From positions 89,456 to 153,455 of the IMG/VR virus record IMGVR_UViG_3300049434_000014: DNA of 64,000 nt; one strand, written 5' to 3'. Under the pieces are notes generated by a model. That model was not told where the DNA came from. It saw only the letters and a program-made list of their open reading frames with translations, and did no database searches. Both the position numbers and the translations under genes were made by a program. How positions within the stretch are numbered: position 1 is the stretch's first letter; each line of letters opens with the position of its first letter. Below, in pieces: positions 2,743 through 61,490 of the stretch. Origin of the DNA: a virus.

Positions 2743-3217
2743 GACTGGTCATGTCCACTCTCGGTGACTCGCTACGTTACACTGCAGATCGACTACTCAA
2801 TTCTGTTCAGGCCCGTTCGATTCATTTGACAACCCGGCACAGGCCCTCTCGCATCCATGCGACAATGCGAGTCTTGTCTCCCCCTGGCCCATGCCGACTG
2901 TCCGTCTCGCCTCCGTATCCCATCCTTTCCGTTCTGTGCCGACGAGCCAGCTCGATCCGGGTCTCTCCCACCCACCGACTAGTCTCTGCGGATCCTCCCG
3001 GGTCAGGTGACTCTGCCGATCTAGTCCCAGCGCATCATCTCGTGTCCGACTATCCGTATCCGTGCTTGTCGTTTCCAATCGACCAGTCAGTCCCGGTCAG
3101 TTCGTGCCTTGTTCCGACAGATCGCTGCTGTTCGTTTCCCGTCAGTGCGACGGACCGAGACTGTTCGCCTCCAATCAGTTCGACTACTCGACACAAGTCA
3201 CCCCAAGGCCGACGAAC
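2743..3217 (+). repeat. Pentamer-phased GAC-(NNNYC)n array 1 (~13 units), candidate ncRNA/guide array
   Basis: e.g. gac agatc gctgc tgttc gtttc ccgtc agtgc | gac ggacc gagac tgttc gcctc caatc agttc | gac tactc gacac aagtc. Confidence 0.9.
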
Positions 3218-3670: not shown

Positions 3671-4080
3671 CTAGGGTGTGGCGTGCTCATGGATTGCCTC
3701 ACGGGCATGCGGATATTCCTAGGAAGATACGAACAGCTGATCATCGATTGTTTGAGCATTTTGATGGTAGTTTGTTTCGTGAGCTTTCTACGTCTCAGTG
3801 TAATTATAGGCACTGGGATGAGTTGGTGTTTCCTGTTTTTGAGGTCTCGGATGTTTCTCCAGAGGCGGTGTCTGCTTCTGCGGATGGTGTGCTCACGGGT
3901 GTGTGGATGTCTGGTCAGTTCTCGGACATCGACATGATTAACGACATCGCTGATTGGTTGTTGAAGACTAAGCTTCCTGTGTTGAACGTCAGTTTTGCTG
4001 CAGCGGTGGCGGATCGTATTCGTTACCTGCTAGAAAATGATGAGGAGACTCACCTGCTGCTAGGGAGAGAAGAGCTGTGA
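3667..4080 (+). CDS. Hypothetical protein
   Basis: ATGA coupling with upstream gene. Confidence 0.6.
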   Translation: MTRVWRAHGLPHGHADIPRKIRTADHRLFEHFDGSLFRELSTSQCNYRHWDELVFPVFEVSDVSPEAVSASADGVLTGVWMSGQFSDIDMINDIADWLLKTKLPVLNVSFAAAVADRIRYLLENDEETHLLLGREEL

Positions 4081-4382
4081 GTGATCACAAGATCGTGGAG
4101 TTTCTGAATTTGTGCGTGTCGGCTGATGAGGCAACCGGGTTAGGTTCGCCGTGGGAGTTTATCTTCAAGCGACGCATCATTGTCATTCATGCCCCACGTA
4201 AAGACGATAATGAGCAGTGGGTGTGTGATGCGTGTTCGTGGATGCATCCTGAGATACGTCAGATTGTTAATGCGTACGCACCTTGCGAGCATTTGCAGTA
4301 TATGTCTATGATCTATTCTAAGCGGGCTGGGTTTGATCCGGATTGGATTCATGACGTGATCGGGTTCGCTGAGCTTCCCTAA
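4077..4382 (+). CDS. DUF6221-like hypothetical protein
   Basis: IVEFL..KRRII..PCEHL..YSKRAGFDPDW pattern recalls this actinobacterial family. Confidence 0.5.
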   Translation: MSDHKIVEFLNLCVSADEATGLGSPWEFIFKRRIIVIHAPRKDDNEQWVCDACSWMHPEIRQIVNAYAPCEHLQYMSMIYSKRAGFDPDWIHDVIGFAELP

Positions 4383-4403
4383 TACTCCGGGTTTTCCGGA
4401 TAT

Positions 4404-4906
4404 GACTACACTACTCCGATCCTTTCATGTCGTTGGCGAATCGTTCCCGTCCCGACTATTCGCCGCATGTCCCTTCGTGTCTTGCCAAGTCGACTATTCG
4501 TTTCGATCCCGGCCATTTCGTTTTGACTATTCGCATCGGATCCAGCTCCTATCGATTCGACTGATCTTGTCGACTACGCAAGTCAGTTCCGTTCTTTGCA
4601 TTGCGACTTGTCGAGCCTGTCCGTGTCCGCGCGTATCGACTACCCGATCCAGTTCCGTCCTTTCCCGCTCTTTCCGACTACGCTCGTCTCATCCGGGCAT
4701 GTCATCTCGACTACTCGATTCTTTCTCGTCGCTGCGGCTCTGTTCGACTACCCGGTTCGATACGGGACATCCCTGTCCGTTCTGACTACCCGTCTCCGTT
4801 CGCTTCTAGCCCAGTCCGTCTCGACAACCCATGTCGCGGCACTGCTCTTCTTTCCGTGACGACAGGCCAGTTCCAGTCTGTTCGTCTCTGTACGACATCA
4901 CACATC
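4404..4906 (+). repeat. Pentamer-phased GAC-(NNNYC)n array 2 (~14 units)
   Basis: gac tattc gccgc atgtc ccttc gtgtc ttgcc aagtc | gac tattc gtttc gatcc cggcc atttc gtttt | ... | gac aggcc agttc cagtc tgttc gtctc tgtac. Confidence 0.9.
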
Positions 4907-4920
4907 GGGTAGGAGTTGGG

Positions 4921-5124
4921 ATGTATACGTTTTCTGAGGGTGTGTTGATTACGGATGACATGATTGAGCGTGACGATTCGATCGAGCCTCGCGCGGGTCA
5001 GCCTTGCTGGTGTCCTGATTCGTTTATCGAGGCGTGTTTTTACGTGCGGTATTGCCCGCGCCACGGGTCGGTTCCTGATCAGGATCTCTGGAATTTCAGG
5101 GTTGCTCCATACGGGATCTCATAG
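4921..5124 (+). CDS. Small hypothetical protein
   Basis: aggag SD, ATG 4921; CWC and CPRH motifs. Confidence 0.5.
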   Translation: MYTFSEGVLITDDMIERDDSIEPRAGQPCWCPDSFIEACFYVRYCPRHGSVPDQDLWNFRVAPYGIS

Positions 5125-7775: not shown

Positions 7776-8069
7776 ATGGCTGAGTCTCAGATTTTCGAAG
7801 AGCACACTGTTCGATACCCCGAGTGCGATAAGCTGCACCGTGTATCTGGCGATGTCTCGACGCTGCATGAGTTTCTGGAGTGGCTGGCTGAGAATGGCCT
7901 GCAGGTGTGCAGCCTTGAGGAGACTGGGAAGTTTGACTGTGATGGTCCGGTCGAGCATTACTTCCCAATCCGCGAGCAGCGAGAAGCTTTGGTGCAGCGG
8001 TTCTTTTCGATTGATCCAGCCAAGCTGGAGAGCGAGCGCAGGGCTATGCTTGCTGCACTGCAGAGTTGA
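7776..8069 (+). CDS. Hypothetical protein
   Basis: aaggag SD, ATG 7776. Confidence 0.65.
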   Translation: MAESQIFEEHTVRYPECDKLHRVSGDVSTLHEFLEWLAENGLQVCSLEETGKFDCDGPVEHYFPIREQREALVQRFFSIDPAKLESERRAMLAALQS

Positions 8070-14893: not shown

Positions 14894-15457
14894 ATGAGTG
14901 AACCTGTGCTTGATACACGTGATTACAATGCTGAGATGAATGAGCTTATTTCAGAGAAGATTCCTGCTGATGGGGATTTCATTCCTTCGCTGGCTGCGTG
15001 GAGCATCGTCTCAGCTCTCACCGAGACTGATCCTGAGCTTCTCGACGGTTGGCTGCGTTTGCACGCGAAGTCGTTTCTTACGGAGTTGATGCGTGCTCAG
15101 CTTCGTTCTCATCGTGCTCGGGTTCGGTCTAGTGCGAAGGCGACGGCGTTTTCGTCTGCTGCTAAGCGCTTTGAGAAAAACGGTGACCTCGCCGAGCTGG
15201 GCGGGTGGATGAAGATTCGGTATGTAGTCGATGATCAGAGTACGCAGCGTTGTCTTGGCGATATGGATCGTAATGATCTGAATTTCGTTGCTTCACGGTA
15301 TAGTCGGACGGCTCAGACTCTGTTGCTCGAGGAGGCGTTTCATCGCGCGCTAGCATCGCGGGTGGGTAGTCTGAAGGTCAGTGAGGTTTTCACTGAGGAG
15401 CAGATTAGCGCGATGTATCGTAATCTGAGTGGCAATACGCATACTGCTACTGCCTGA
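14894..15457 (+). CDS. Hypothetical helical protein, stop codon overlaps first GAC of array 3
   Basis: 187 aa ORF with gagga SD. Confidence 0.7.
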   Translation: MSEPVLDTRDYNAEMNELISEKIPADGDFIPSLAAWSIVSALTETDPELLDGWLRLHAKSFLTELMRAQLRSHRARVRSSAKATAFSSAAKRFEKNGDLAELGGWMKIRYVVDDQSTQRCLGDMDRNDLNFVASRYSRTAQTLLLEEAFHRALASRVGSLKVSEVFTEEQISAMYRNLSGNTHTATA

Positions 15458-15793
15458 CTTACCAAGACCAGTCACGGCTCATCCGTTCGATACCGTTCCG
15501 ACATGTCTAGCCTCATCCCGTCAAGTCTTGCCATTGCCGACACGTCTAAGCACGTCTATTCACGTCCGACATTCCAAGGCCAGTCGCGTCGCGTTGGGCC
15601 ATATCGCTTCCTTTCCGACTACGCACTTCTGCCCATAACTATTCACGGCGACTTCCCGTATCAGGCCAAGTCGAGCCGTTTCGACTACACACTTCTCGCC
15701 GCGCCTAGTCGGGACCGACTTCACAAGCCGGATCGTGACAGGTCAGTTCGAGACCGACTGGGCTATCCGAATCGTTTCTCATCCGACAATGTC
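15456..15793 (+). repeat. Pentamer-phased GAC-(NNNYC)n array 3 (9 complete units)
   Basis: gac atgtc tagcc tcatc ccgtc aagtc ttgcc attgc c | gac acgtc taagc acgtc tattc acgtc c | ... | gac ttccc gtatc aggcc aagtc gagcc gtttc. Confidence 0.92.
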
Positions 15794-16772: not shown

Positions 16773-17531
16773 GTGACGGTTTCTACTTCGGCTCCTGTCA
16801 GTGTGTTTGCAAAGTACCGTGATGTCACGTGGCCTTATAGGTATGAGGGCACTCTGCACATCGATACCATTGCTGGAGGCATTCCTTCTGACGAGAAGGT
16901 TGCTGAGGCATGGTTACGTACGAAGTTGGAGAACAAAGACGACCTCATTCGTGAGGCCGTTGCTGAGACGATGGCCGCTCGCGGTGTCGGTAAGGAAGAG
17001 GCGGCACAGATCGTCGCTTCGATGAAGCACTTCACTGGTTTTAAGCGTGACAGCAATGGGCTATACATCGAAGGTCGTCAGCTGAAAGCGGCGATCAAGG
17101 AAGCGGCGATGATTGCTGTCGCCGCTGAGCGGATTCCCCTGCGCGGGTGGGGTGTTACCTCGAAGTACCTTAAGGGTTTCGTCGCGGAACACATCATGGT
17201 TGTCGATGACATCTTGTACTTGAAGGTGGACGGCACTCCTGCAAAGGAAGCTACTGGAATCACTCAGCAGTTCGTTCACACCCAGTACGGTTCGGCTCCG
17301 CACTACAAGGAGTTCGTGTCCGGTGCTACCATTGATTTCACGGTGATTACGGACTTCTTCTTCACCGAGGAGCATTGGATGCACATCTGGGCTACGGGTG
17401 AGCAGGAAGGGATCGGTGCCTCGCGCTCTGGCGGGTTCGGTCGCTACGTGGTTACTCGGTGGAATTTGGTGACTTCCCCACCAAAGAAGAAGGCTCCTGC
17501 CAAGGAGAAGGAAGCGGCTGCAGTTAGGTAG
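16773..17531 (+). CDS. Solitary RAMP-superfamily (Cas7/Csm3-like) RNA-binding protein
   Basis: aggagg SD; LYIEGRQLKAAIKEA matches the RAMP IPGSSxKGxxR motif; C-terminal G-rich loop GIGASRSGGFGRY; N-terminal strand YEGTLHI. Confidence 0.8.
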   Translation: MTVSTSAPVSVFAKYRDVTWPYRYEGTLHIDTIAGGIPSDEKVAEAWLRTKLENKDDLIREAVAETMAARGVGKEEAAQIVASMKHFTGFKRDSNGLYIEGRQLKAAIKEAAMIAVAAERIPLRGWGVTSKYLKGFVAEHIMVVDDILYLKVDGTPAKEATGITQQFVHTQYGSAPHYKEFVSGATIDFTVITDFFFTEEHWMHIWATGEQEGIGASRSGGFGRYVVTRWNLVTSPPKKKAPAKEKEAAAVR

Positions 17532-17564: not shown

Positions 17565-17862
17565 GACAAGCCAAGCCGCATCCAGACGCGCCACCGCGCT
17601 TCGACTATTCGTGTCAGATCTATCCATCTCCTTCGACCAGCCGTGTCGCGATCATGTCGCTTCCTAGTCCTTTCGACCTGTCGCTACGTTGCGCTTCTTG
17701 GCATATCCACACCGACCATGCGCGCCGCGACCTTACAAATCCTCTCGCCCTGACGAGTCTCCACGCGGCTCTACAATACTCATCATTCTGACAAGTCTTC
17801 ACGCGGCTCTACAATACTCATCATTCTGACTAGCCAAACCGGTACATACCATTTCGCACGAC
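17565..17862 (+). repeat. Pentamer-phased GAC-(NNNYC)n array 4 (8 units), directly downstream of the RAMP gene
   Basis: gac aagcc aagcc gcatc cagac gcgcc accgc gcttc | gac tattc gtgtc agatc tatcc atctc cttc | ... | gac ctgtc gctac gttgc gcttc ttggc atatc cacac c. Confidence 0.92.
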
Positions 17863-17871
17863 TGAGGACTA

Positions 17872-18993
17872 ATGTCTACTGAGCCTTGGACTTTACGATA
17901 CCGACCACGCAAGTTTTCTGATGTTACTGGTCAGAAGGCGGTTCGGTTGGTGCTGCAGCGAATGGTCGTCACGGGTGACGTCCGCTCAGCTTTGCTGTTT
18001 CATGGTTCACACGGTTCAGGTAAGACTTCCATGGCACGGATACTTGCTGCCGCTTTGAATTGCGAAGCTGAGGATCCCGCTGCTCGCCCGTGCGGTGTGT
18101 GTGCGATTTGCGATTCGACAGCGCATGGCCGGTCTGCTGATGTCACGGAAATCGATGCTGCATCGTCCGGGCTCGCTGCGGATATGCGCGCGTTGCGCGA
18201 GACGGTGCGTTTCGCTGCTCAGGCTCGCTATCGTGTGGTGATCCTCGATGAGTGTCACGCTATGTCGCCTACGGGCTTTCAGACTTTGTTGAAGACTTTA
18301 GAGGAGCCTCCTGCCAACACGGTGATCATTCTCGTGACTACTGTCCTCGACAAGGTTCCGGACACGATCGTGTCTCGGTGTTTGTCGTTGGAGTTTCGTC
18401 GGTTGACGGAAGAGCAGATCGCTGGTCGACTGGCTCAGATCTCTGAGGCTGAGGGCCTTGAGCTGGCCCCTGCGCTTGCCAGGTCGGTTGCTGCCCGCTC
18501 GAGGGGGATCGCCCGTGACGCTGTCTCTCTGCTTGAGCAATGTGCTCTTGTGCGTGTACGGACTCCTGAGCAGCTGGCGGTTTTACTAGGCGACGATGAC
18601 CATGGGATCGCGATCCTGCGTGCGCTGGTCGGTCCTCCTGGTCATATGTCGCCAGGAGCCAATCACCCCTCAGATTTTTCTGTGGCATTCGGGTGTATTG
18701 AGAGCGCTCTGGCCACCTTGCCCTCACCGGGTGAGGTGGTGGCCGCGCTCGTGCGGACGCTGAAGCGGTTGCTGATTTTGACCTCTGGCGGGGATGGATC
18801 TTTCATGCATCCTCCTAGTACTGCGGGCGAAGTGGCTCTAGCTGGGCTTTTGGACTCAGCACGGTGTGTTACCGCGATGAGAGTAGTTTGGGAGTATTAT
18901 TCTAAAGTCGCACCGGTTGCTGATGCTTATGCAGCTATGGATCTTTTGGTAACGCTTTTGAGTCAGGCTCTTAAGTCGTCTTCTCGTACGTAG
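17872..18993 (+). CDS. dnaX: DNA polymerase III gamma/tau clamp-loader subunit
   Basis: RYRPRKFSDVTGQ, Walker A GSHGSGKTS, PCGVC Zn site, ILDECH, LLKTLEEPP, TIVSRC. Confidence 0.93.
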   Translation: MSTEPWTLRYRPRKFSDVTGQKAVRLVLQRMVVTGDVRSALLFHGSHGSGKTSMARILAAALNCEAEDPAARPCGVCAICDSTAHGRSADVTEIDAASSGLAADMRALRETVRFAAQARYRVVILDECHAMSPTGFQTLLKTLEEPPANTVIILVTTVLDKVPDTIVSRCLSLEFRRLTEEQIAGRLAQISEAEGLELAPALARSVAARSRGIARDAVSLLEQCALVRVRTPEQLAVLLGDDDHGIAILRALVGPPGHMSPGANHPSDFSVAFGCIESALATLPSPGEVVAALVRTLKRLLILTSGGDGSFMHPPSTAGEVALAGLLDSARCVTAMRVVWEYYSKVAPVADAYAAMDLLVTLLSQALKSSSRT

Positions 18994-55033: not shown

Positions 55034-55807
55034 TTGATAGTGCTATCACCACAACAGCGTAAGTTGATTGAAGATAGAGTTGGACTGGCTCGCGCTGTAG
55101 GTCATAAAGAGTGGAAGAAGTTATCAGGATACGAACGCGACGAAGTGATCGCGTGGGCTCTGCATGGGTTGGTGTCTGCTGCGGTGCGCTGGCCAGCTTA
55201 TTGCGAAGAGCATGGTTATGAAATGTATACTGAGACTGCTCAGTCTTGGTTCAATACTTATGCGTCGCAGCGGATTCATGGTGCTGTGATTGACGCATTA
55301 CGTTCTTTAGATCCTGCTACGCGACGAGAGCGCGCGATAGTTAAGGACATTATTGCTCACGGTGTGGACTTGTATTCTCCGTGGGATCATGATTCTCCTG
55401 AGTCGATCGCTGCTGCCACGGGCCTGCCTATCGCGGACGTCTCAGCGGCGATCTCAGCGCTCATGCGGGTGCCTCTGAGCCTCGATGAGGCCGTGGAGCT
55501 TGAGCAGGCTCCTGACCCTCGCAACGTCGAAGCTGAGGCGCTGGCGGCTGATCTGGCGGGCCGTGTGGTGGCAGCGGTGTCCGCGCTGCCTCGGCTTCAT
55601 CAGCGTGTATTGATCTTGTCGGTGCATCTCGGCTATTCTGATGTTGAGGTGGCCAAGGCTCTCCCTGAGATCTCGCGGGATCCTGTTATGAGACGCTGGT
55701 CTGTGCAATGGATTGTGTTCCTTCGCAGGCAGGCCCAAGACTCATTGATTGCTACCCTGCGAGCTGAGCTAGATCCGGGTGAGGAATCTTGGGCTGCGAG
55801 CGGGTAG
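55034..55807 (+). CDS. Sigma-70 family factor, FliA/WhiG-like
   Basis: FNTYASQRIHGAVIDALRSLD (region 2.3-2.4 of sigma28), PLSLDE, LPRLHQRVLIL region 4. Confidence 0.8.
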   Translation: MIVLSPQQRKLIEDRVGLARAVGHKEWKKLSGYERDEVIAWALHGLVSAAVRWPAYCEEHGYEMYTETAQSWFNTYASQRIHGAVIDALRSLDPATRRERAIVKDIIAHGVDLYSPWDHDSPESIAAATGLPIADVSAAISALMRVPLSLDEAVELEQAPDPRNVEAEALAADLAGRVVAAVSALPRLHQRVLILSVHLGYSDVEVAKALPEISRDPVMRRWSVQWIVFLRRQAQDSLIATLRAELDPGEESWAASG

Positions 55808-55944
55808 GAGCAAACCAATCCGGGCGGGGCATAGGGATAGCCGGACAGACTTCCCATTACAGGATAATCCAGACATATACCCTATATCTCAACAGTGTAT
55901 GCTAGGATGCTTCATCGGACTCCGGGTCGCCGGATACATCTTGT

Positions 55945-58900
55945 GACTAGTCGAGTGCACTCCCCATCCCTTCTCGTCTCGCGACTAGTCGAGTTCCCGT
56001 CCCGGCACCTCCTGTCGTATCGACTAGTCGCTTACCGTCTCGTCAAGTCAGATCCGTATGACTAGCCGAACCCGTACCGTCCTCGCCGTTTCCAGACCGA
56101 CATGTCTATGCCCTGCTGAGCAGCTCGTGTCTGTCCGACTGTTCTGTCTCGACTTGTCGAGTCGGATCCTCCCGTTCCCGACAAGTCGACTCGGGTCGAT
56201 GCGGTCGACTGTTTTTATGACAAGTCGATACCGTCCAGGTCAGATCAGGTCGACCATTCTCACGACAAGCCGAGATTGTGCCGGGTCCGTCCGGGTCGAC
56301 AAGCCACGTCTTTACCAGTCTTCTCCGTTCGACAGGTCGAGTCATAGCGATTCGTGCGACTCTACTGTTTCGATTCTGCTGTCTCGACTGTATCCTCACG
56401 ACAAGCCGACTCGGGCTCACGTCCCGCCAATATGACTTATCAGTTCGACTGATCAACGCGACAAGTCAAGTCCCCTCGGGTCCATTCGTGTCATTGCGTT
56501 TCGACAAGTCAAGTCGCACCGAGTCTAGTCACGGTGACTATGCTATGCGGGTCAGTACCGTCCCAGACAATTCTGTTCTGTCGACCACGCTATCCGGGTC
56601 AGGGCTAAGCCAAGCGACCGCGCTTGCCTGTTCGTTCCATTTCATTCGACTTCTCACTTACGACTTCTCATGTCTGGGCACGTCATCTCGAGAGACAATC
56701 CAAGTCTGAACACAACAGCTCGACTCAGAAGACAACTCAAGTCACGCCTTGCCCAGTCATCCCCGTGCGACTACTCCTGTCACTGCGAACCAACCCGGTC
56801 CTTACGACTATTCCTTGCATAGCGAAGCACATCGTTTCCTTCTGACTTTGCACTCAGACCATACAGAACGACTTCTCTGTTCGAGACAGTTCGCGGCGAT
56901 TCCTTTCGACTGTTCCCTTTCCTGACAGAGCCAGTCATTTCAATTCACTGCCTTCCCGACGAGTCAGATCCGTTCGCGTCCGGGTCCTGTCTTCTCGTTT
57001 CGACCTGTCCGATCAAATCTGGGCCTGACGGTTCTGTACCGACTCTTTCAACATGACTATTTCAAACAGACTGTTCCAGCCAGGTCAATACGGCGCTCCC
57101 CGACTTATCAGTACGACAAGTCAACTCAAGGCAATGCAGCTCCTCCCCGTTTCCGACTGGCCCAGTCAGGTCAATACAGGGCTCTCTGACGGTTCTGTTC
57201 CGACAAGCCAGCTCACGACAAGTCAAAGCAAGTCAGTTCGGGTCCGTTCGTTTCGACAAGTCCTCTCAGGTCTGATCTCTCCGACAAGCCAGCTCACTGC
57301 GGATCCGTTCGTTTCGACTATTCGGGTGTGGTCACGTCAATGCGGATCGGTATGACTAATCGACTCCTGTCCGATCAGCTCTCTGCCGACTTGCCTTGTC
57401 CAACCCGACTCAGTGCAAGCGACTTGTCCTGACGCGGCGTGTCAGTCCAGCATCGACTATTCTGGTCCTGACGGCCCCGATCATGTCGCCTCGACTTCCC
57501 CTCCCACGCCGGGTCACCTCCCTTCTTTCGACAGTTCGGATCCAGTCACTTCCCATACACTTCGACATGTCCTATCCGTTCGAGTCAGATTCAGATCCTT
57601 ACCGACTACTCCTGTCAGTTTCGATACCGTTCAATCCAAGTCAGTGCGACTACGCATGTCGCGGCGAGTCATTTCCGGGTCAGCTCCGACTCTACGAACC
57701 CGACTGGTCGCGTCTGATCCTTGGCCCTTCCGTTCTTTCCCGACTGGTCAAGACAAGTCCTTTCCCGTCTGTTGACAGGTCAGATCCAGTCATGTCCCTT
57801 CATTGCGACGAGTCTCCGCACTTCGGGTCTGCACGTTCCGACGAGTCTACGCAATTCGATCCCGTACATTTTCGACTGGTCGCATCTGGTCTATGCCATT
57901 TCACGTCGACTAGTCGCACCTGCCCGCTACCTTTCCACGTCGACTGGCCAAGCCGTTGCGGTGACACGTCATTTCAGATCGCCTTCTGCCCCGACACTGC
58001 GAGTCACGTCACTGTCTCTGCGGGCCAGTTCTGATCACTTCGACTATTCGACACGAGCCTTACCGAGTCTGTTCGACTAGACGATCCGTTACCAGTCGCT
58101 ACGACTATATGTTCACGACTATCCGATGCGATCCTTAGCTGATCTAGTCGCTCTGACTACTCGATTCGTTTCGTGTTCTATCCCGACTATGCGAGTCTTC
58201 TCCCATCGAACCGTTCTGACTACTCGATCCATTTCGACGCCGCTTCGTATCTGCCCCGACTACTCGAGCCAATTCTATTCACGTCGACTCAGATGACTGG
58301 CTTATGACAATACAGCCCGCACCGTTTCCCTGCCTCCCCAATCCATGCAGTCCCGACTGCGCGCATCATCTCCATACCCTTCCACTCCCTACATCACTGA
58401 CTGACCAAGTCGAGACACGTCATTTCATCACCGACTGACCAAGTCGGGTCAACTCCACCTCATCTCCGACTCCACGGACCACTTCCCTTCCGTTCGCCAC
58501 GACTCTTTCGATACGATTCTTTTAATACGATTCTTTTAATACGATTCTTTTAATACGATTCTTTTAATACGACTGTTCAGCTCGCCTTCATTGCCACGAC
58601 CATTCCTTTCCCTTCTGACTGTTCATCTCGGTTCATGTCCGTCCATCTCTAGTCGACTACTCTTGCCGGGTCTGTGCTGCTCCGACTACTCCCGTCAGGC
58701 CCGAGCATTTCGCTTACCGACTACTCCGATCCTCCCACGTCCCATCACCTCGGTACGACTGTTTCGTTGCGACTACTCAGGTCACTCCATTCCCCTTCGA
58801 CTACCGACTGTTCGTGTCACGACATTTCCACCCTTATCAAGACGACTCATCATTACGACACGTCGTGGCGAGGCGACACATTCCGCACACGTCTTTTCCG

Positions 58901-60215
58901 ACACGTCATTATCGAGTCGTCTCGACACCGCTTCCCTTCACGTCCGACTCTACGAATCTACACATTCGACCGACCACTTCGGATCCAGTCATGGCTGCCC
59001 CCTTCCGTTCTCTTCCGACAAGTCGCATCGCGTCCTGTACGCTGTCAAGTCACTGCACATGACTAGTCGGCTTCGTTTCGCTGTCTCCCCGTGTCATTTC
59101 CCGTCCGACAAGCCGCAATCAACACGCGTCCCGTCATACCGAGACGACTGGTCAATATGACAAGCCGCTTTCAACTCGCCTACGCGTCATGCCGACAAGT
59201 CGACACGCTTACCATCCATTGCTCTGCCGACCACCCAAGCCTGCCCCCTGCCGCTGCGCCTCGATGCCGACCAAGCGCTTCTTTGCTGTCCGCGCCCGTT
59301 TCGATACCGACCAGCCGCTTCTTTGCCAGTCCGGGTCAGTTCCTTTCCGACTTGTCCCTGCTGATCAGTACAATCCGAGTCGACAAGCCATGCCAATTCA
59401 AATCACTTCACTGTGACAAGTCACGACGGATCCATTCATTTCTGAGCGACAAGTCACGACGATTCCTCCCACTTCTGGTCGACTGTTTCGGTGCGACTAC
59501 CCGTGTCCCTGCATGTCTTGTCAAGTCTTGTCAATGCCGACTATTCGGGTCATGTCTGCGCGCGTCGACAACACCACTCAAGTCCACCGCAGTCGATTCT
59601 ATTCCGACAAGTCAGGTCAAAGCGGGTCAGCTCTCACCGTTACCGACAAGTCAGATCAGGTCGAGTCAGTTCCTATCAATGCGACAAGTCGCATCCCATC
59701 CGTGCGGGTCTGCTCGCCTGCTGACAAGTCACGTCGCTTCCCCTCGCCACGACTCGTCAAATCAAGCCGTGCCATGTCTACTCGTTTCGACAAGCCAGGT
59801 CACAGCAAGTCGGCTCATTGCGACGAGCCAGGTCACGACAAGTCCCCTCCCGTCCGACGAGTCAGAGCCGTACAAGTCCCTTCCTTACCGACTACTCTGG
59901 TCAATACGATTCCAGTCCTGTCGACAAGTCAGATCAGAACGCGCCACCTCATTTCAGCCCGACAAGCCTAATCGGGTCCTGCCATTTCGGTTCAGTGCGA
60001 CTACTCGTCTCGTGTCCCTTCCTGTCATTGCGCTCCCCGTCCGACAAGTCATTTCCGCGTCGACCCAACGCGCTGCGACATGTCAAGTCGGGTGCGCGTC
60101 ATGGCTCTGCACTTCCCTTCCGACTACTCCCGACAAGACCCGTCTGGCCGGTTTCGAGCCGGATCTCTGCGAGCCAATCCGACTGCTCCGTTCGTGACAT
60201 GCCGTTGACGTCTTC
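55945..60215 (+). repeat. Large pentamer-phased GAC-(NNNYC)n array 5 (~4.3 kb, roughly 110-130 units estimated from unit length)
   Basis: gac aagtc aagtc ccctc gggtc cattc gtgtc attgc gtttc | gac aagtc aagtc gcacc gagtc tagtc acggt | gac tatgc tatgc gggtc agtac cgtcc; no credible CDS. Confidence 0.93.
58511..58570 (+). repeat. Perfect tandem repeat (atacgattctttta) x4.3 inside array 5
   Basis: Directly visible. Confidence 0.95.
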
Positions 60216-60453: not shown

Positions 60454-60807
60454 ATGGGGCGGGGATCTGTTGTGGGGAGTCTGTTGGCGCTTCATCGTCG
60501 GGCTGAAGGCTCCACAGAGCGAGTGAAACGACAATGGTTGGTTTGTAACTCTCCTGATTTATATCATGTTCCGAATACTCCGTGTGCGGCTCGTGATTGT
60601 AAGACGTGTGGTGAGCAGGTTTGGGTTCCGATGTTGTTTCTACCGTTGGTGGAGTCTGGGGAGTTGTCTCCGGTGTGCTGGCCGTGTCATGATGCGACGG
60701 GTCGGCGGGTGGGGATGCATCGGTTAGAAGAGCCCATCATCAAGTCGATGGGTAAGATGGGTGAAGCACAGGAACTTCTCGATTACCTGAATTCTCATCT
60801 CGACTGA
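60454..60807 (+). CDS. Zn-finger hypothetical protein (start uncertain)
   Basis: CKTC..CWPC. Confidence 0.55.
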   Translation: MGRGSVVGSLLALHRRAEGSTERVKRQWLVCNSPDLYHVPNTPCAARDCKTCGEQVWVPMLFLPLVESGELSPVCWPCHDATGRRVGMHRLEEPIIKSMGKMGEAQELLDYLNSHLD

Positions 60808-61490
60808 TTTATTACGACTGATTTACTACGACTGATCTAATCGTGTCCCATCGTTACGTTTCGACTGGCCGATTCTGTTCCCGACTGAGCTAGTCGCGTT
60901 CGCTCATATCAGTTCCCTTCCGACTATTCATTCGCTTCAGCGCATCTCGGTCCATACGACAAGTCCGCTCGCGGCTACTCGTGTCGAGTGACATGCCATG
61001 TCAAGTCCTTACGTTTCTTTTCGACGTGTCAAGCCAATACCTCACAGCTCCCGTCTTAAGACTCGGCTGGGCGACCCAGATCTCATCACGTCATTGCGAC
61101 CAGTCGAGCCAACCCCTGTTCGCGTCTATGTGACCAGCCGCTTCGAGCCAGCTCGCGAACGCTTCCCGTCAGTACCGACTCACCTGCTCAAGCCCATTCG
61201 GTTTCCGGCCCGACTAGCCTCGTCGCCTCTTGCCCTTTCTGTTCGACTTGTCTCCGCTCCCCCACTCATCTCCTGGCCGACTACTCACCTCGTGCCCATC
61301 CGGGTCCCCCCGTTTCGCGGCGACTACTCAAGACAGCACACGATCTCGTCTATCCGCTTCGACTACTCCAATCCGCTCAATTGCGTCTTGCCAGATCACA
61401 TCCGACTACCCATAGCCATATCGAGTCTTGTCTCGGCGACTCCGACTACCCGATCCGTCGCACTTCTTTTCATCCCTGTTCGACTGTCCT
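60802..61490 (+). repeat. Pentamer-phased GAC-(NNNYC)n array 6 (~18 units)
   Basis: gac tgatc taatc gtgtc ccatc gttac gtttc | ... | gac tactc acctc gtgcc catcc gggtc ccccc gtttc gcggc | gac tactc aagac agcac acgatc tcgtc tatcc gcttc. Confidence 0.9.

What the first reader, a model, noticed from the sequence alone, without database searches (positions are those of the whole stretch)
4384..4906. Array 2 shares a leader hairpin with array 5
Seen: array 2 is preceded by actccgg-gtttt-ccggata (4384-4402) and array 5 by actccgg-gtcg-ccggata (55919-55936). The stem is identical and the loop differs. A TAGGAT -10-like box lies just upstream of the second copy (~55903). Most array 2 units begin GACTA. 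Inference: a conserved 5' leader for stability, processing or RAMP loading.
Basis: partly seen in the sequence, partly recalled or inferred. Interest (0 to 1): 0.72.

Follow-up and report, generated by a model that had tools for sequence, protein, structure and literature searches.

The report
Shared leader hairpin before phage guide arrays
Two of this phage's non-coding guide-RNA-like arrays begin with the same small hairpin, which recurs before arrays in three related phage contigs (once with matching changes on both sides of the stem), so it is probably a real start-of-transcript signal, though its job is untested.

Summary
The hairpin AC-TCCGG-loop-CCGGA-TA occurs twice in the 153-kb phage genome, at window 4384-4402 and 55919-55936. 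Both copies are on the coding strand, 3 and 10 nt before the first GACTA unit of a five-base-periodic array.

It is not array-flank duplication: the same stem and flanks, with a third loop, precede arrays in two IMG/VR contigs. Their Cas7-like (Vipr-like) protein is only 42-48% identical to this phage's.

In the syntenic 146-kb relative G001, both large arrays have the same layout. Its stem is CCCAG/CTGGG, which is two compensatory pair changes.

In five of six array leaders a TANNNT -10 box ends 6-10 nt before the AC. For array 5 this is TGCTAGGAT.

My reading is a promoter-proximal stem-loop at the 5' edge of the array precursor RNA, most likely protecting or defining its 5' end. This is inferred, not shown.

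Limits:
- Five of the seven arrays here lack it, as do almost all arrays in 93 related loci.
- G001 has one exact copy in a protein gene's 5' UTR.
- The array 2 copy has a decayed -10.
- Stability is ordinary, about -8 kcal/mol.

The arrays themselves were already read in this scan as a divergent VIPR system. The hairpin is a modest new detail.

The parts
4077..4382 (+). Upstream ORF (101 aa, no Pfam match). Its TAA stop lies 2 nt before the array 2 hairpin module.
4367..4375 (+). Decayed counterpart of the extended -10 box (cgcTGAGCT). It aligns with TGCTAGGAT / TGCTAGGCT of the other leaders but lacks the A at the second position of the hexamer. It lies 8 nt before the AC of the hairpin.
   Evidence: alignment; sequence
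4384..4402 (+). Leader hairpin of array 2: AC, stem 4386-4390 / 4396-4400, loop GTTTT, then TA.
4404..4906 (+). Array 2: about 15 units, mostly starting GACTA, spaced 33-39 nt, with C at every fifth base. It is followed by an RBS-like TAGGAG and an ATG at 4921.
55034..55807 (+). Divergent FliA/WhiG-like sigma factor gene immediately upstream of the array 5 leader (context). Its G001 homolog also sits directly upstream of a hairpin-led array.
55900..55908 (+). Extended -10-like box TGCTAGGAT, ending 10 nt before the AC of the hairpin.
   Evidence: the same box type lies 7 nt before the hairpin in L068 and L180
55919..55936 (+). Leader hairpin of array 5: AC, stem 55921-55925 / 55930-55934, loop GTCG, then TA.
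55945..60203 (+). Array 5: a 4.3-kb gene-free, C-rich array (102 runs of at least five C at 5-nt spacing) on the coding strand.
16773..17531 (+). Stand-alone Cas7/Csm3-fold (Vipr-like) protein gene, the presumed partner of the arrays. It lies 12 kb from array 2 and 38 kb from array 5.

Best explanation
The element is a short cis-acting stem-loop: AC, a 5-bp stem, a 4-6 nt loop of free sequence, then TA. It is encoded at the 5' edge of some array transcription units of this phage's VIPR-like system, a Cas7-like protein with five-base-periodic guide arrays.

Proposed mechanism:
- Where the array has its own promoter, a TANNNT -10 box ends 6-10 nt before the AC. Transcription would then start at or just before the AC, and the hairpin would form at the very 5' end of the long, untranslated, C-rich precursor.
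- There it most likely shields or defines the 5' end against 5'-end-dependent RNases (RNase J and RNase E in actinobacteria).
- In array 2, which seems to be read through from the upstream gene, it would act as a barrier that fixes a stable 5' end just before the first unit.

Shown here: the sequence, its uniqueness, its strand and position, its recurrence in relatives, and compensatory stem changes.

Inferred: that it is transcribed, where transcription starts, and the protective role.
For: 1. Uniqueness and placement. There are only two copies in 153 kb, both on the coding strand and both within 12 nt of an array start.

2. Recurrence with the stem kept and the loop free. L068 and L180 carry ACTCCGG-GACCTT-CCGGATA directly before arrays. 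Their Vipr-like proteins are only 42-48% identical to this phage's. Loops across all copies are GTTTT, GTCG, GACCTT, TCATT, TGGT and TTGT.

3. Compensatory change. In the syntenic 146-kb relative G001, both large arrays are led by AC-CCCAG-loop-CTGGG-TA. One of them lies downstream of the same sigma-like gene as array 5. That is two pairs changed on both sides, with the same stem length, flanks and position.

4. Promoter context. TGCTAGGAT (array 5), TGCTAGGCT (L068), TGCTAGCGT (L180) and GGGTATGAT (G001, twice) end 6-10 nt before the AC.
- GGTAYGAY is strongly strand-biased: 26:4 in this genome and 31:1 in G001.
- The same motif lies 6 nt before the first unit of two hairpin-less arrays.
- In L068 and L180 the hairpin-led array is inverted relative to its neighbours and carries the -10 box with it.

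5. The array 2 copy keeps a perfect hairpin although its -10 counterpart has decayed. This suggests selection on the hairpin itself.

6. Variable loop length (4-6 nt) and non-palindromic conserved flanks fit a folded single strand better than a dimeric DNA operator.
Against: - No RNA data. The transcription start and the presence of the hairpin in RNA are inferred from consensus boxes only.
- The stem is short and its energy ordinary: -7.5 to -8.3 kcal/mol, z about -1.
- Stem covariation rests on one lineage. The two G001 copies are paralogs, and the other five copies have identical stems, so the stem sequence itself may be what is read.
- Most arrays do without it. Five of seven here lack it, and only L178 and L180 carry it among 93 related loci.
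- It is not array-specific. G001 has an exact GGACTCCGG-loop-CCGGATACA copy in the 5' UTR of a protein gene.
- Array 2 has no credible -10 at the right place, so there the hairpin would be internal to a longer RNA.
- Array 5's -10 is 10 nt from the AC, so up to about 5 unpaired nucleotides may precede the stem.
Confidence: 0.5

Rival explanations
1. Boundary or loading signal for the Cas7-like protein. The hairpin would stop the protein filament from spreading 5' of the first unit, or mark where precursor processing begins. This would be analogous to the structured cap on known VIPR guide RNAs.
For: - The hairpin is always immediately 5' of the first unit, in both promoter-led and read-through contexts.
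- In L180 a second, operonic array also starts with a CCGG-core hairpin right after a stop codon.
- The identical stem in phages with about 45% identical Vipr proteins hints at sequence-specific reading.
- In SUSP1 VIPR a structured element caps the guide RNA (10.64898/2026.04.26.720927).
Against: - The distance from hairpin to first unit varies from 3 to 11 nt, so there is no fixed register.
- It occurs once per array, not once per guide, whereas the known cap is a 3' element on every guide.
- Most arrays next to Vipr genes lack any hairpin.
- G001 has an exact copy before a protein gene.
Confidence: 0.15
2. Processive antitermination signal. Long, untranslated, C-rich, G-poor RNA is an ideal substrate for Rho. 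A leader hairpin could recruit factors or modify RNA polymerase so that a 0.5-4.3 kb array is transcribed to its end, as boxA leaders do for long CRISPR arrays (recalled from the literature, not checked here).
For: - The arrays are strongly C-rich with negative GC skew over 4.3 kb.
- The hairpin precedes the longest arrays of both phages (4.3 kb here, 4.0 kb and 0.6 kb in G001) and sits just after the promoter.
Against: - Loops are not conserved, unlike lambda boxB, and no boxA-like motif is shared by the copies.
- Arrays of 440 and 650 nt here lack it, while the 500-nt array 2 has it.
- Nothing was tested.
Confidence: 0.12
3. DNA-level element: an operator for a regulator, or part of a promoter read by the phage's own FliA/WhiG-like sigma factor. 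The 3' arm plus flank (GCCGGATA) resembles the sigma-28 type -10 box GCCGATAA (consensus recalled from memory).
For: - A divergent FliA/WhiG-like sigma gene lies directly upstream of array 5 and of its G001 counterpart.
- The site is an inverted repeat near the start of transcription.
- Stem sequence is identical in five copies.
Against: - Arm spacing varies from 4 to 6 nt, which is unusual for a dimeric operator.
- Conserved flanks are not symmetric, and the element is always on one strand (0 reverse hits).
- The G001 arrays changed both arms in a complementary way, while the same genome keeps a TCCGG copy. This fits pairing, not a linear box.
- No TAAA-like -35 lies 15 nt upstream.
- In array 2 and L068 the first unit starts 0-2 nt after the putative box.
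Confidence: 0.13
4. No function of its own: a relic of a duplicated or horizontally moved promoter cassette. Alternatively, a weak U-less terminator for the upstream gene.
For: - Within each genome the leaders are paralogous copies, with similarity extending upstream (GCTTC-N5-6-AC here, a 40-nt shared leader in G001).
- Folding energy is ordinary.
- The array 2 copy follows a stop codon.
Against: - Sixteen flank-and-stem bases are kept exactly while loops and all surrounding sequence diverge, across phages with about 45% identical marker proteins.
- There are compensatory changes in G001.
- The hairpin is intact beside a decayed -10.
- There is no T-run, and the terminator scan finds nothing at either site.
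- A terminator directly after a promoter, as in array 5, L068 and G001, makes no sense.
Confidence: 0.1

Closest known systems
5'-terminal stabilising stem-loops of bacterial and phage transcripts (e.g. the ompA 5' UTR hairpin in E. coli; 5' stem-loops that block RNase J1 in Bacillus). Recalled from the literature, not checked here.
   Same: A short stem-loop within a few nucleotides of the predicted transcript start. Loop sequence is free, the stem is kept, and the element acts in cis and is modular (found before both arrays and a protein gene).
   Different: Here it precedes non-coding guide arrays. The stem sequence and the AC/TA flanks are conserved far more than a generic stabiliser would need. 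The transcription start and any effect on half-life are unmeasured.
VIPR systems (Vipr + vap + vrRNA): bioRxiv 10.64898/2026.04.26.720920 and .720927. Non-canonical pentamer motifs are reported in 10.64898/2026.10.21.760802.
   Same: A lone Cas7-fold protein gene in a phage with five-base-periodic arrays of fixed trinucleotide and variable dinucleotide. Structured RNA elements bound the guide in known systems.
   Different: Known vrRNAs carry a structured 3' tail on every guide and a GGY/NN repeat. Here the repeat is NYC/NN on the coding strand, units are about 35 nt with a short GACWA anchor, and the hairpin occurs once per array at its 5' end. I found no leader hairpin described in the three VIPR papers I searched.
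CRISPR leaders
   Same: A promoter-bearing sequence immediately upstream of the first unit of a guide array.
   Different: There are no direct repeats. I did not search for adaptation genes. The leader here is about 45 nt with a hairpin, rather than an A/T-rich region with integration signals.
Lambda nut boxB / other leader antitermination hairpins
   Same: A 5-bp stem with a 4-6 nt loop close to the promoter of a long transcription unit.
   Different: The boxB loop is sequence-specific, whereas here loops differ in every copy. No shared boxA-like motif is present.

Membership tests
VIPR-type guide array locus | Stand-alone RAMP/Cas7-fold (Vipr) protein gene in the same element | tested here: met
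   AlphaFold model of window 16773-17531 (pLDDT 73). Foldseek top hits are Csm3 / type VII Cas7 chains, E about 7e-7, probability 1.0. No sequence-level PDB hit.
VIPR-type guide array locus | Arrays with 5-nt periodicity (fixed trinucleotide / variable dinucleotide) | tested here: met
   C at every fifth base in seven clusters, including 4406-4893 and 55958-60203.
VIPR-type guide array locus | Canonical GGY/NN repeat with a structured 3' tail on each guide | tested here: not met
   The repeat is NYC/NN on the coding strand with a short GACWA anchor. Non-canonical motifs are reported in 10.64898/2026.10.21.760802.
VIPR-type guide array locus | Guide RNAs expressed and bound by the protein | not testable with these tools
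   No RNA-seq or biochemical data available.
5'-terminal stabilising stem-loop | Hairpin within a few nucleotides of the transcription start | tested here: inconclusive
   A TANNNT box ends 6-10 nt before the AC in five of six array leaders. Array 2 has a decayed box. No start site is mapped.
5'-terminal stabilising stem-loop | Pairing, not sequence, is conserved | tested here: inconclusive
   Two compensatory pairs in the two G001 array leaders. The other five copies have identical stems.
5'-terminal stabilising stem-loop | Removal shortens transcript half-life | not testable with these tools
   Needs an experiment.
Intrinsic (Rho-independent) terminator | G+C-rich stem followed by a T/U run | tested here: not met
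   No T-run after either copy. The terminator scan reports nothing at 4384-4402 or 55919-55936.
boxB-type antitermination hairpin | Conserved loop sequence and an adjacent boxA | tested here: not met
   There are six different loops among seven copies, and no shared linear motif beyond AC/TA.
Sigma-28 (FliA/WhiG) promoter | GCCGATAA-like -10 with TAAA-like -35 about 15 nt upstream | tested here: not met
   Only a one-base-longer resemblance in the 3' arm, and no TAAA at the right distance in any copy. The consensus is recalled from memory.
Any Rfam family | Match to a curated covariance model | tested here: not met
   No hit at E up to 5 in 4250-4600 or 55750-56100. Only tRNAs in the window at gathering score.

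The most novel reading that the evidence does not exclude
The hairpin is a specific recognition element of this actinophage VIPR-like lineage, not a generic stabiliser. It would be read by the Cas7-like protein or another phage or host factor. Its role would be either to insulate the first guide from upstream RNA or to make RNA polymerase resistant to Rho over kilobases of untranslated C-rich array. That would be a leader function with no described counterpart in VIPR systems.
Probability: 0.2. Interest if true: 0.6.

Novelty: new member of a known kind. Interest (0 to 1): 0.4.

Why it matters
VIPR-type systems were described only in 2026. The papers I searched say nothing about how their arrays are transcribed, where precursors start, or how very long arrays such as this 4.3-kb one are kept intact.

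A small, portable promoter-plus-hairpin cassette recurs before arrays in distinct phages. It gives a concrete handle for three things:
- mapping array transcription units;
- choosing the transcribed strand, here the C-phased strand, which differs from the canonical G-phased guides;
- designing expression constructs.

If the hairpin turns out to be read specifically (boundary or antitermination), it would add a new regulatory layer to these systems. If it is a plain 5' stabiliser, it is an ordinary element in an interesting place.

Tried and rejected
1. General feature of this phage's promoters? No. The 35 nt after 26 (this genome) and 31 (G001) GGTAYGAY sites fold no better than random windows.

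2. Other stems of the same architecture before arrays in 93 Vipr-family loci. There were 19 generalised hits in 1.36 Mb, and only L178 and L180 are array-linked. A looser scan gave mostly noise in high-GC DNA.

3. Census in IMG/VR.
- The 14-base pattern is swamped by chance hits.
- Two tighter patterns give only L068 and L180/L240 as true cases.

4. Relatives through flanking proteins. The sigma-like protein finds only G001 in viral contigs and nothing in metagenomes. The phage GenBank set has no DNA match and only a 31% Vipr match in a Microcystis phage.

5. The next relative of L068 (L220, Vipr 70% identical to L068's) keeps the TGCTAAGTT box but has no equivalent hairpin.

6. A bulged-C extension (A pairing with U outside the stem) is energetically neutral at best, so I do not claim it.

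7. Transcription of the opposite (G-phased) strand. No consensus -10 motifs lie at the far ends of arrays on that strand. In addition, 95 of 100 arrays in relatives are on the Vipr coding strand.

8. MAFFT misplaced a gap inside the stem for L068 and L180, so I read the pair changes directly instead of using count of structure pairs.

The closest Vipr homologs (92-63% identical) could therefore not be inspected.

Full report
**What is there**

The window is the last 64 kb of a 153,455-bp phage genome. Nearly all long ORFs are on the + strand.

Counting runs of C at 5-nt spacing maps seven arrays on the + strand:
- one just before the window;
- 2770-3209;
- 15453-15783;
- 17567-17855;
- 55958-60203 (array 5, 4.3 kb);
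- 60832-61481.

The gene at 16773-17531 encodes a protein whose AlphaFold model matches Csm3 / type VII Cas7 backbone subunits (Foldseek E about 7e-7). Earlier reports of this scan read the whole system as a divergent VIPR system. I read the VIPR preprints and agree that this is the right frame. The repeat here is NYC/NN on the coding strand rather than GGY/NN.

**The observation**

Both hairpins are exactly where stated.
- The motif TCCGG-N3-8-CCGGA occurs only at these two places in the whole genome.
- The generalised form (AC, 5-bp Watson-Crick stem, loop of 4-6, TA) gives 2 forward and 0 reverse hits. Shuffled genomes gave a mean of 0.3.
- Each copy lies 3 or 10 nt before the first GACTA anchor of its array.
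- TAGGAT is at 55903-55908 and is preceded by TGC.
- Ten of about 15 units of array 2 start with GACTA.
- The first units and the wider flanks of the two arrays are unrelated, so this is not a recent segmental duplication. Similarity does extend a little upstream (GCTTC, 5-6 nt, AC).

**Relatives**

A pattern scan of IMG/VR, filtered for a periodic array downstream, found L068. It carries the same AC-TCCGG...CCGGA-TA with loop GACCTT, directly before an 800-nt array.
- L068 encodes a Vipr-like protein on the other strand, about 45-50% identical to this phage's.
- Fetching 76 Vipr-family loci added L180, which has the same hairpin before a divergent array.
- Two tighter scans show these are the only array-linked exact copies in IMG/VR.

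The closest whole-genome relative is G001 (146 kb, 95% complete, syntenic at 65-73% DNA identity). I fetched it in full.
- Its two large arrays lie in roughly the same genomic neighbourhoods as arrays 1-2 and array 5 here.
- Both start with GGGTATGAT, then 6-8 nt, then AC-CCCAG-(TGGT or TTGT)-CTGGG-TA, then 2-6 nt, then GAC.
- This is the same architecture with two base pairs changed on both sides.
- G001 also holds an exact GGACTCCGG-TCATT-CCGGATACA copy, which shares 18 bases with array 5's copy. It sits in the 5' UTR of a protein gene. This phage has a different hairpin at that homologous spot.
- A fourth generalised hit in G001 lies in a tRNA-like region and is probably unrelated.

**Promoter context and strand**

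- In array 5, L068 and L180 an extended -10 (TGCTAG-N-N-T) ends 7-10 nt before the AC. In G001 a TATGAT box ends 6-8 nt before it.
- GGTAYGAY is a strongly strand-biased motif in both genomes (26:4 and 31:1). It stands 6 nt before the first unit of two hairpin-less arrays here. Arrays therefore have their own promoters on the C-phased strand.
- In relatives, 95 of 100 clean arrays are on the Vipr coding strand. Of the 92 that could be classified, 72 begin at the stop codon of the upstream gene.
- L068 and L180 are the exceptions: the array is inverted and has taken the -10 box and hairpin with it.
- No consensus -10 motif sits at the far ends of arrays on the opposite strand.
- All this supports transcription of the C-phased strand, with the hairpin at about +1 to +5 of the RNA.

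Array 2 differs. Its counterpart of the box reads TGAGCT, with the key A lost, and it follows a stop codon by 2 nt. It is therefore probably read through from upstream, yet the hairpin is intact.

**Mechanism**

The pattern is a fixed stem length, loops free in sequence and length, asymmetric conserved flanks, one strand only, compensatory change in a relative, and a constant distance to the -10 box. This fits a folded RNA element at the 5' edge of the array precursor.
- The most economical role is protection or definition of the 5' end of a long untranslated RNA.
- The variable distance to the first unit (3-11 nt) argues against a ruler-type processing or loading signal.
- The free loops and the absence of a shared linear motif argue against a boxB/boxA type antiterminator.
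- The variable arm spacing and complementary arm changes argue against an operator or a linear sigma-factor box. A divergent FliA/WhiG-like sigma gene does sit just upstream of array 5 and of its G001 counterpart.
- It is not a terminator: there is no T-run.

**Weak points**

- There are no RNA data.
- Folding energy is ordinary.
- Covariation comes from one lineage only.
- Five of seven copies have identical stems across distant phages, so the stem sequence itself may be recognised.
- The element is absent from most arrays and is not a general property of this phage's promoters.
- No Rfam family matches.

**Verdict**

The reading 'conserved 5' leader' is supported by comparison, while its function is open. 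In the VIPR papers I searched there is no mention of a leader, hairpin or stem-loop before arrays. This is therefore a modest new detail of a recently described kind of system, and a new instance of the well-known class of promoter-proximal 5' stem-loops.

One tool (look-up of encoding contigs) was closed, so the closest protein relatives could not be examined.

Noticed in passing
window 55034-55807: The gene directly upstream of the array 5 leader encodes a divergent FliA/WhiG-like sigma factor. It hits FliA chains in the PDB (E 1e-8) and TIGR02479 (E 8e-12, below the curated cut-off). Its G001 homolog (60% identical) also sits directly before a hairpin-led array.
   Followed up: partly
whole genome (e.g. 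G000 70636, 70948, 71744, 72328, 73034; window 2656, 17551): GGTAYGAY is a strongly strand-biased -10-like motif (26 forward, 4 reverse). Outside the window, a series of five intergenic copies share GTAACGTTTGC about 7 nt upstream, which looks like a phage promoter family. Two arrays start 6 nt after such a box.
   Followed up: partly
window 58499-58572: A perfect 14-nt tandem repeat (ACGATTCTTTTAAT, 5.3 copies), A/T-rich, sits in the middle of the 4.3-kb C-rich array and splits it into two halves. A similar 14-nt repeat (2.6 copies) opens the array at 60801-60836.
   Followed up: no
L180:11224-11260 (+): A second array in this contig is operonic and follows the ORF after the Vipr gene. It also begins with a hairpin (CCGGAG-CCGTT-CTCCGG) 10 nt after the stop codon and 4 nt before the first unit. 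It shares the CCGG core but has a different arrangement.
   Followed up: partly
L145:5990-6065 and 7860-7936 (+): Two arrays in another Vipr locus share a different leader: a 9-bp inverted repeat (GCCGGGGAG / CTCCCCGGC) enclosing a TTGAC-type -35, followed by TAAGGT. So leader cassettes shared between arrays of one genome recur with unrelated sequences.
   Followed up: no
G001 (L214:19606-19626, - strand), between tRNA-Glu and tRNA-Cys: An AC-CCGGC-GAGGG-GCCGG-TA hairpin lies in a tRNA-like stretch that has a canonical T-arm (GGTTCGATTCC) but is not called by ARAGORN. It may be an odd tRNA or another small RNA.
   Followed up: partly
G000 18771-18880 (outside the window) versus G001 (L211:5891-6090, - strand): The 5' UTRs of a homologous protein gene each carry a hairpin about 8-20 nt after a -10-like box, but with unrelated stems. 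G001 uses the array-type TCCGG hairpin. This phage uses CACAATCC / GGAGTGTG.
   Followed up: no
window 4906-4923: Array 2 runs straight into an RBS-like TAGGAG and an ATG at 4921. A 520-nt untranslated C-rich array is therefore embedded between two co-directional genes.
   Followed up: no
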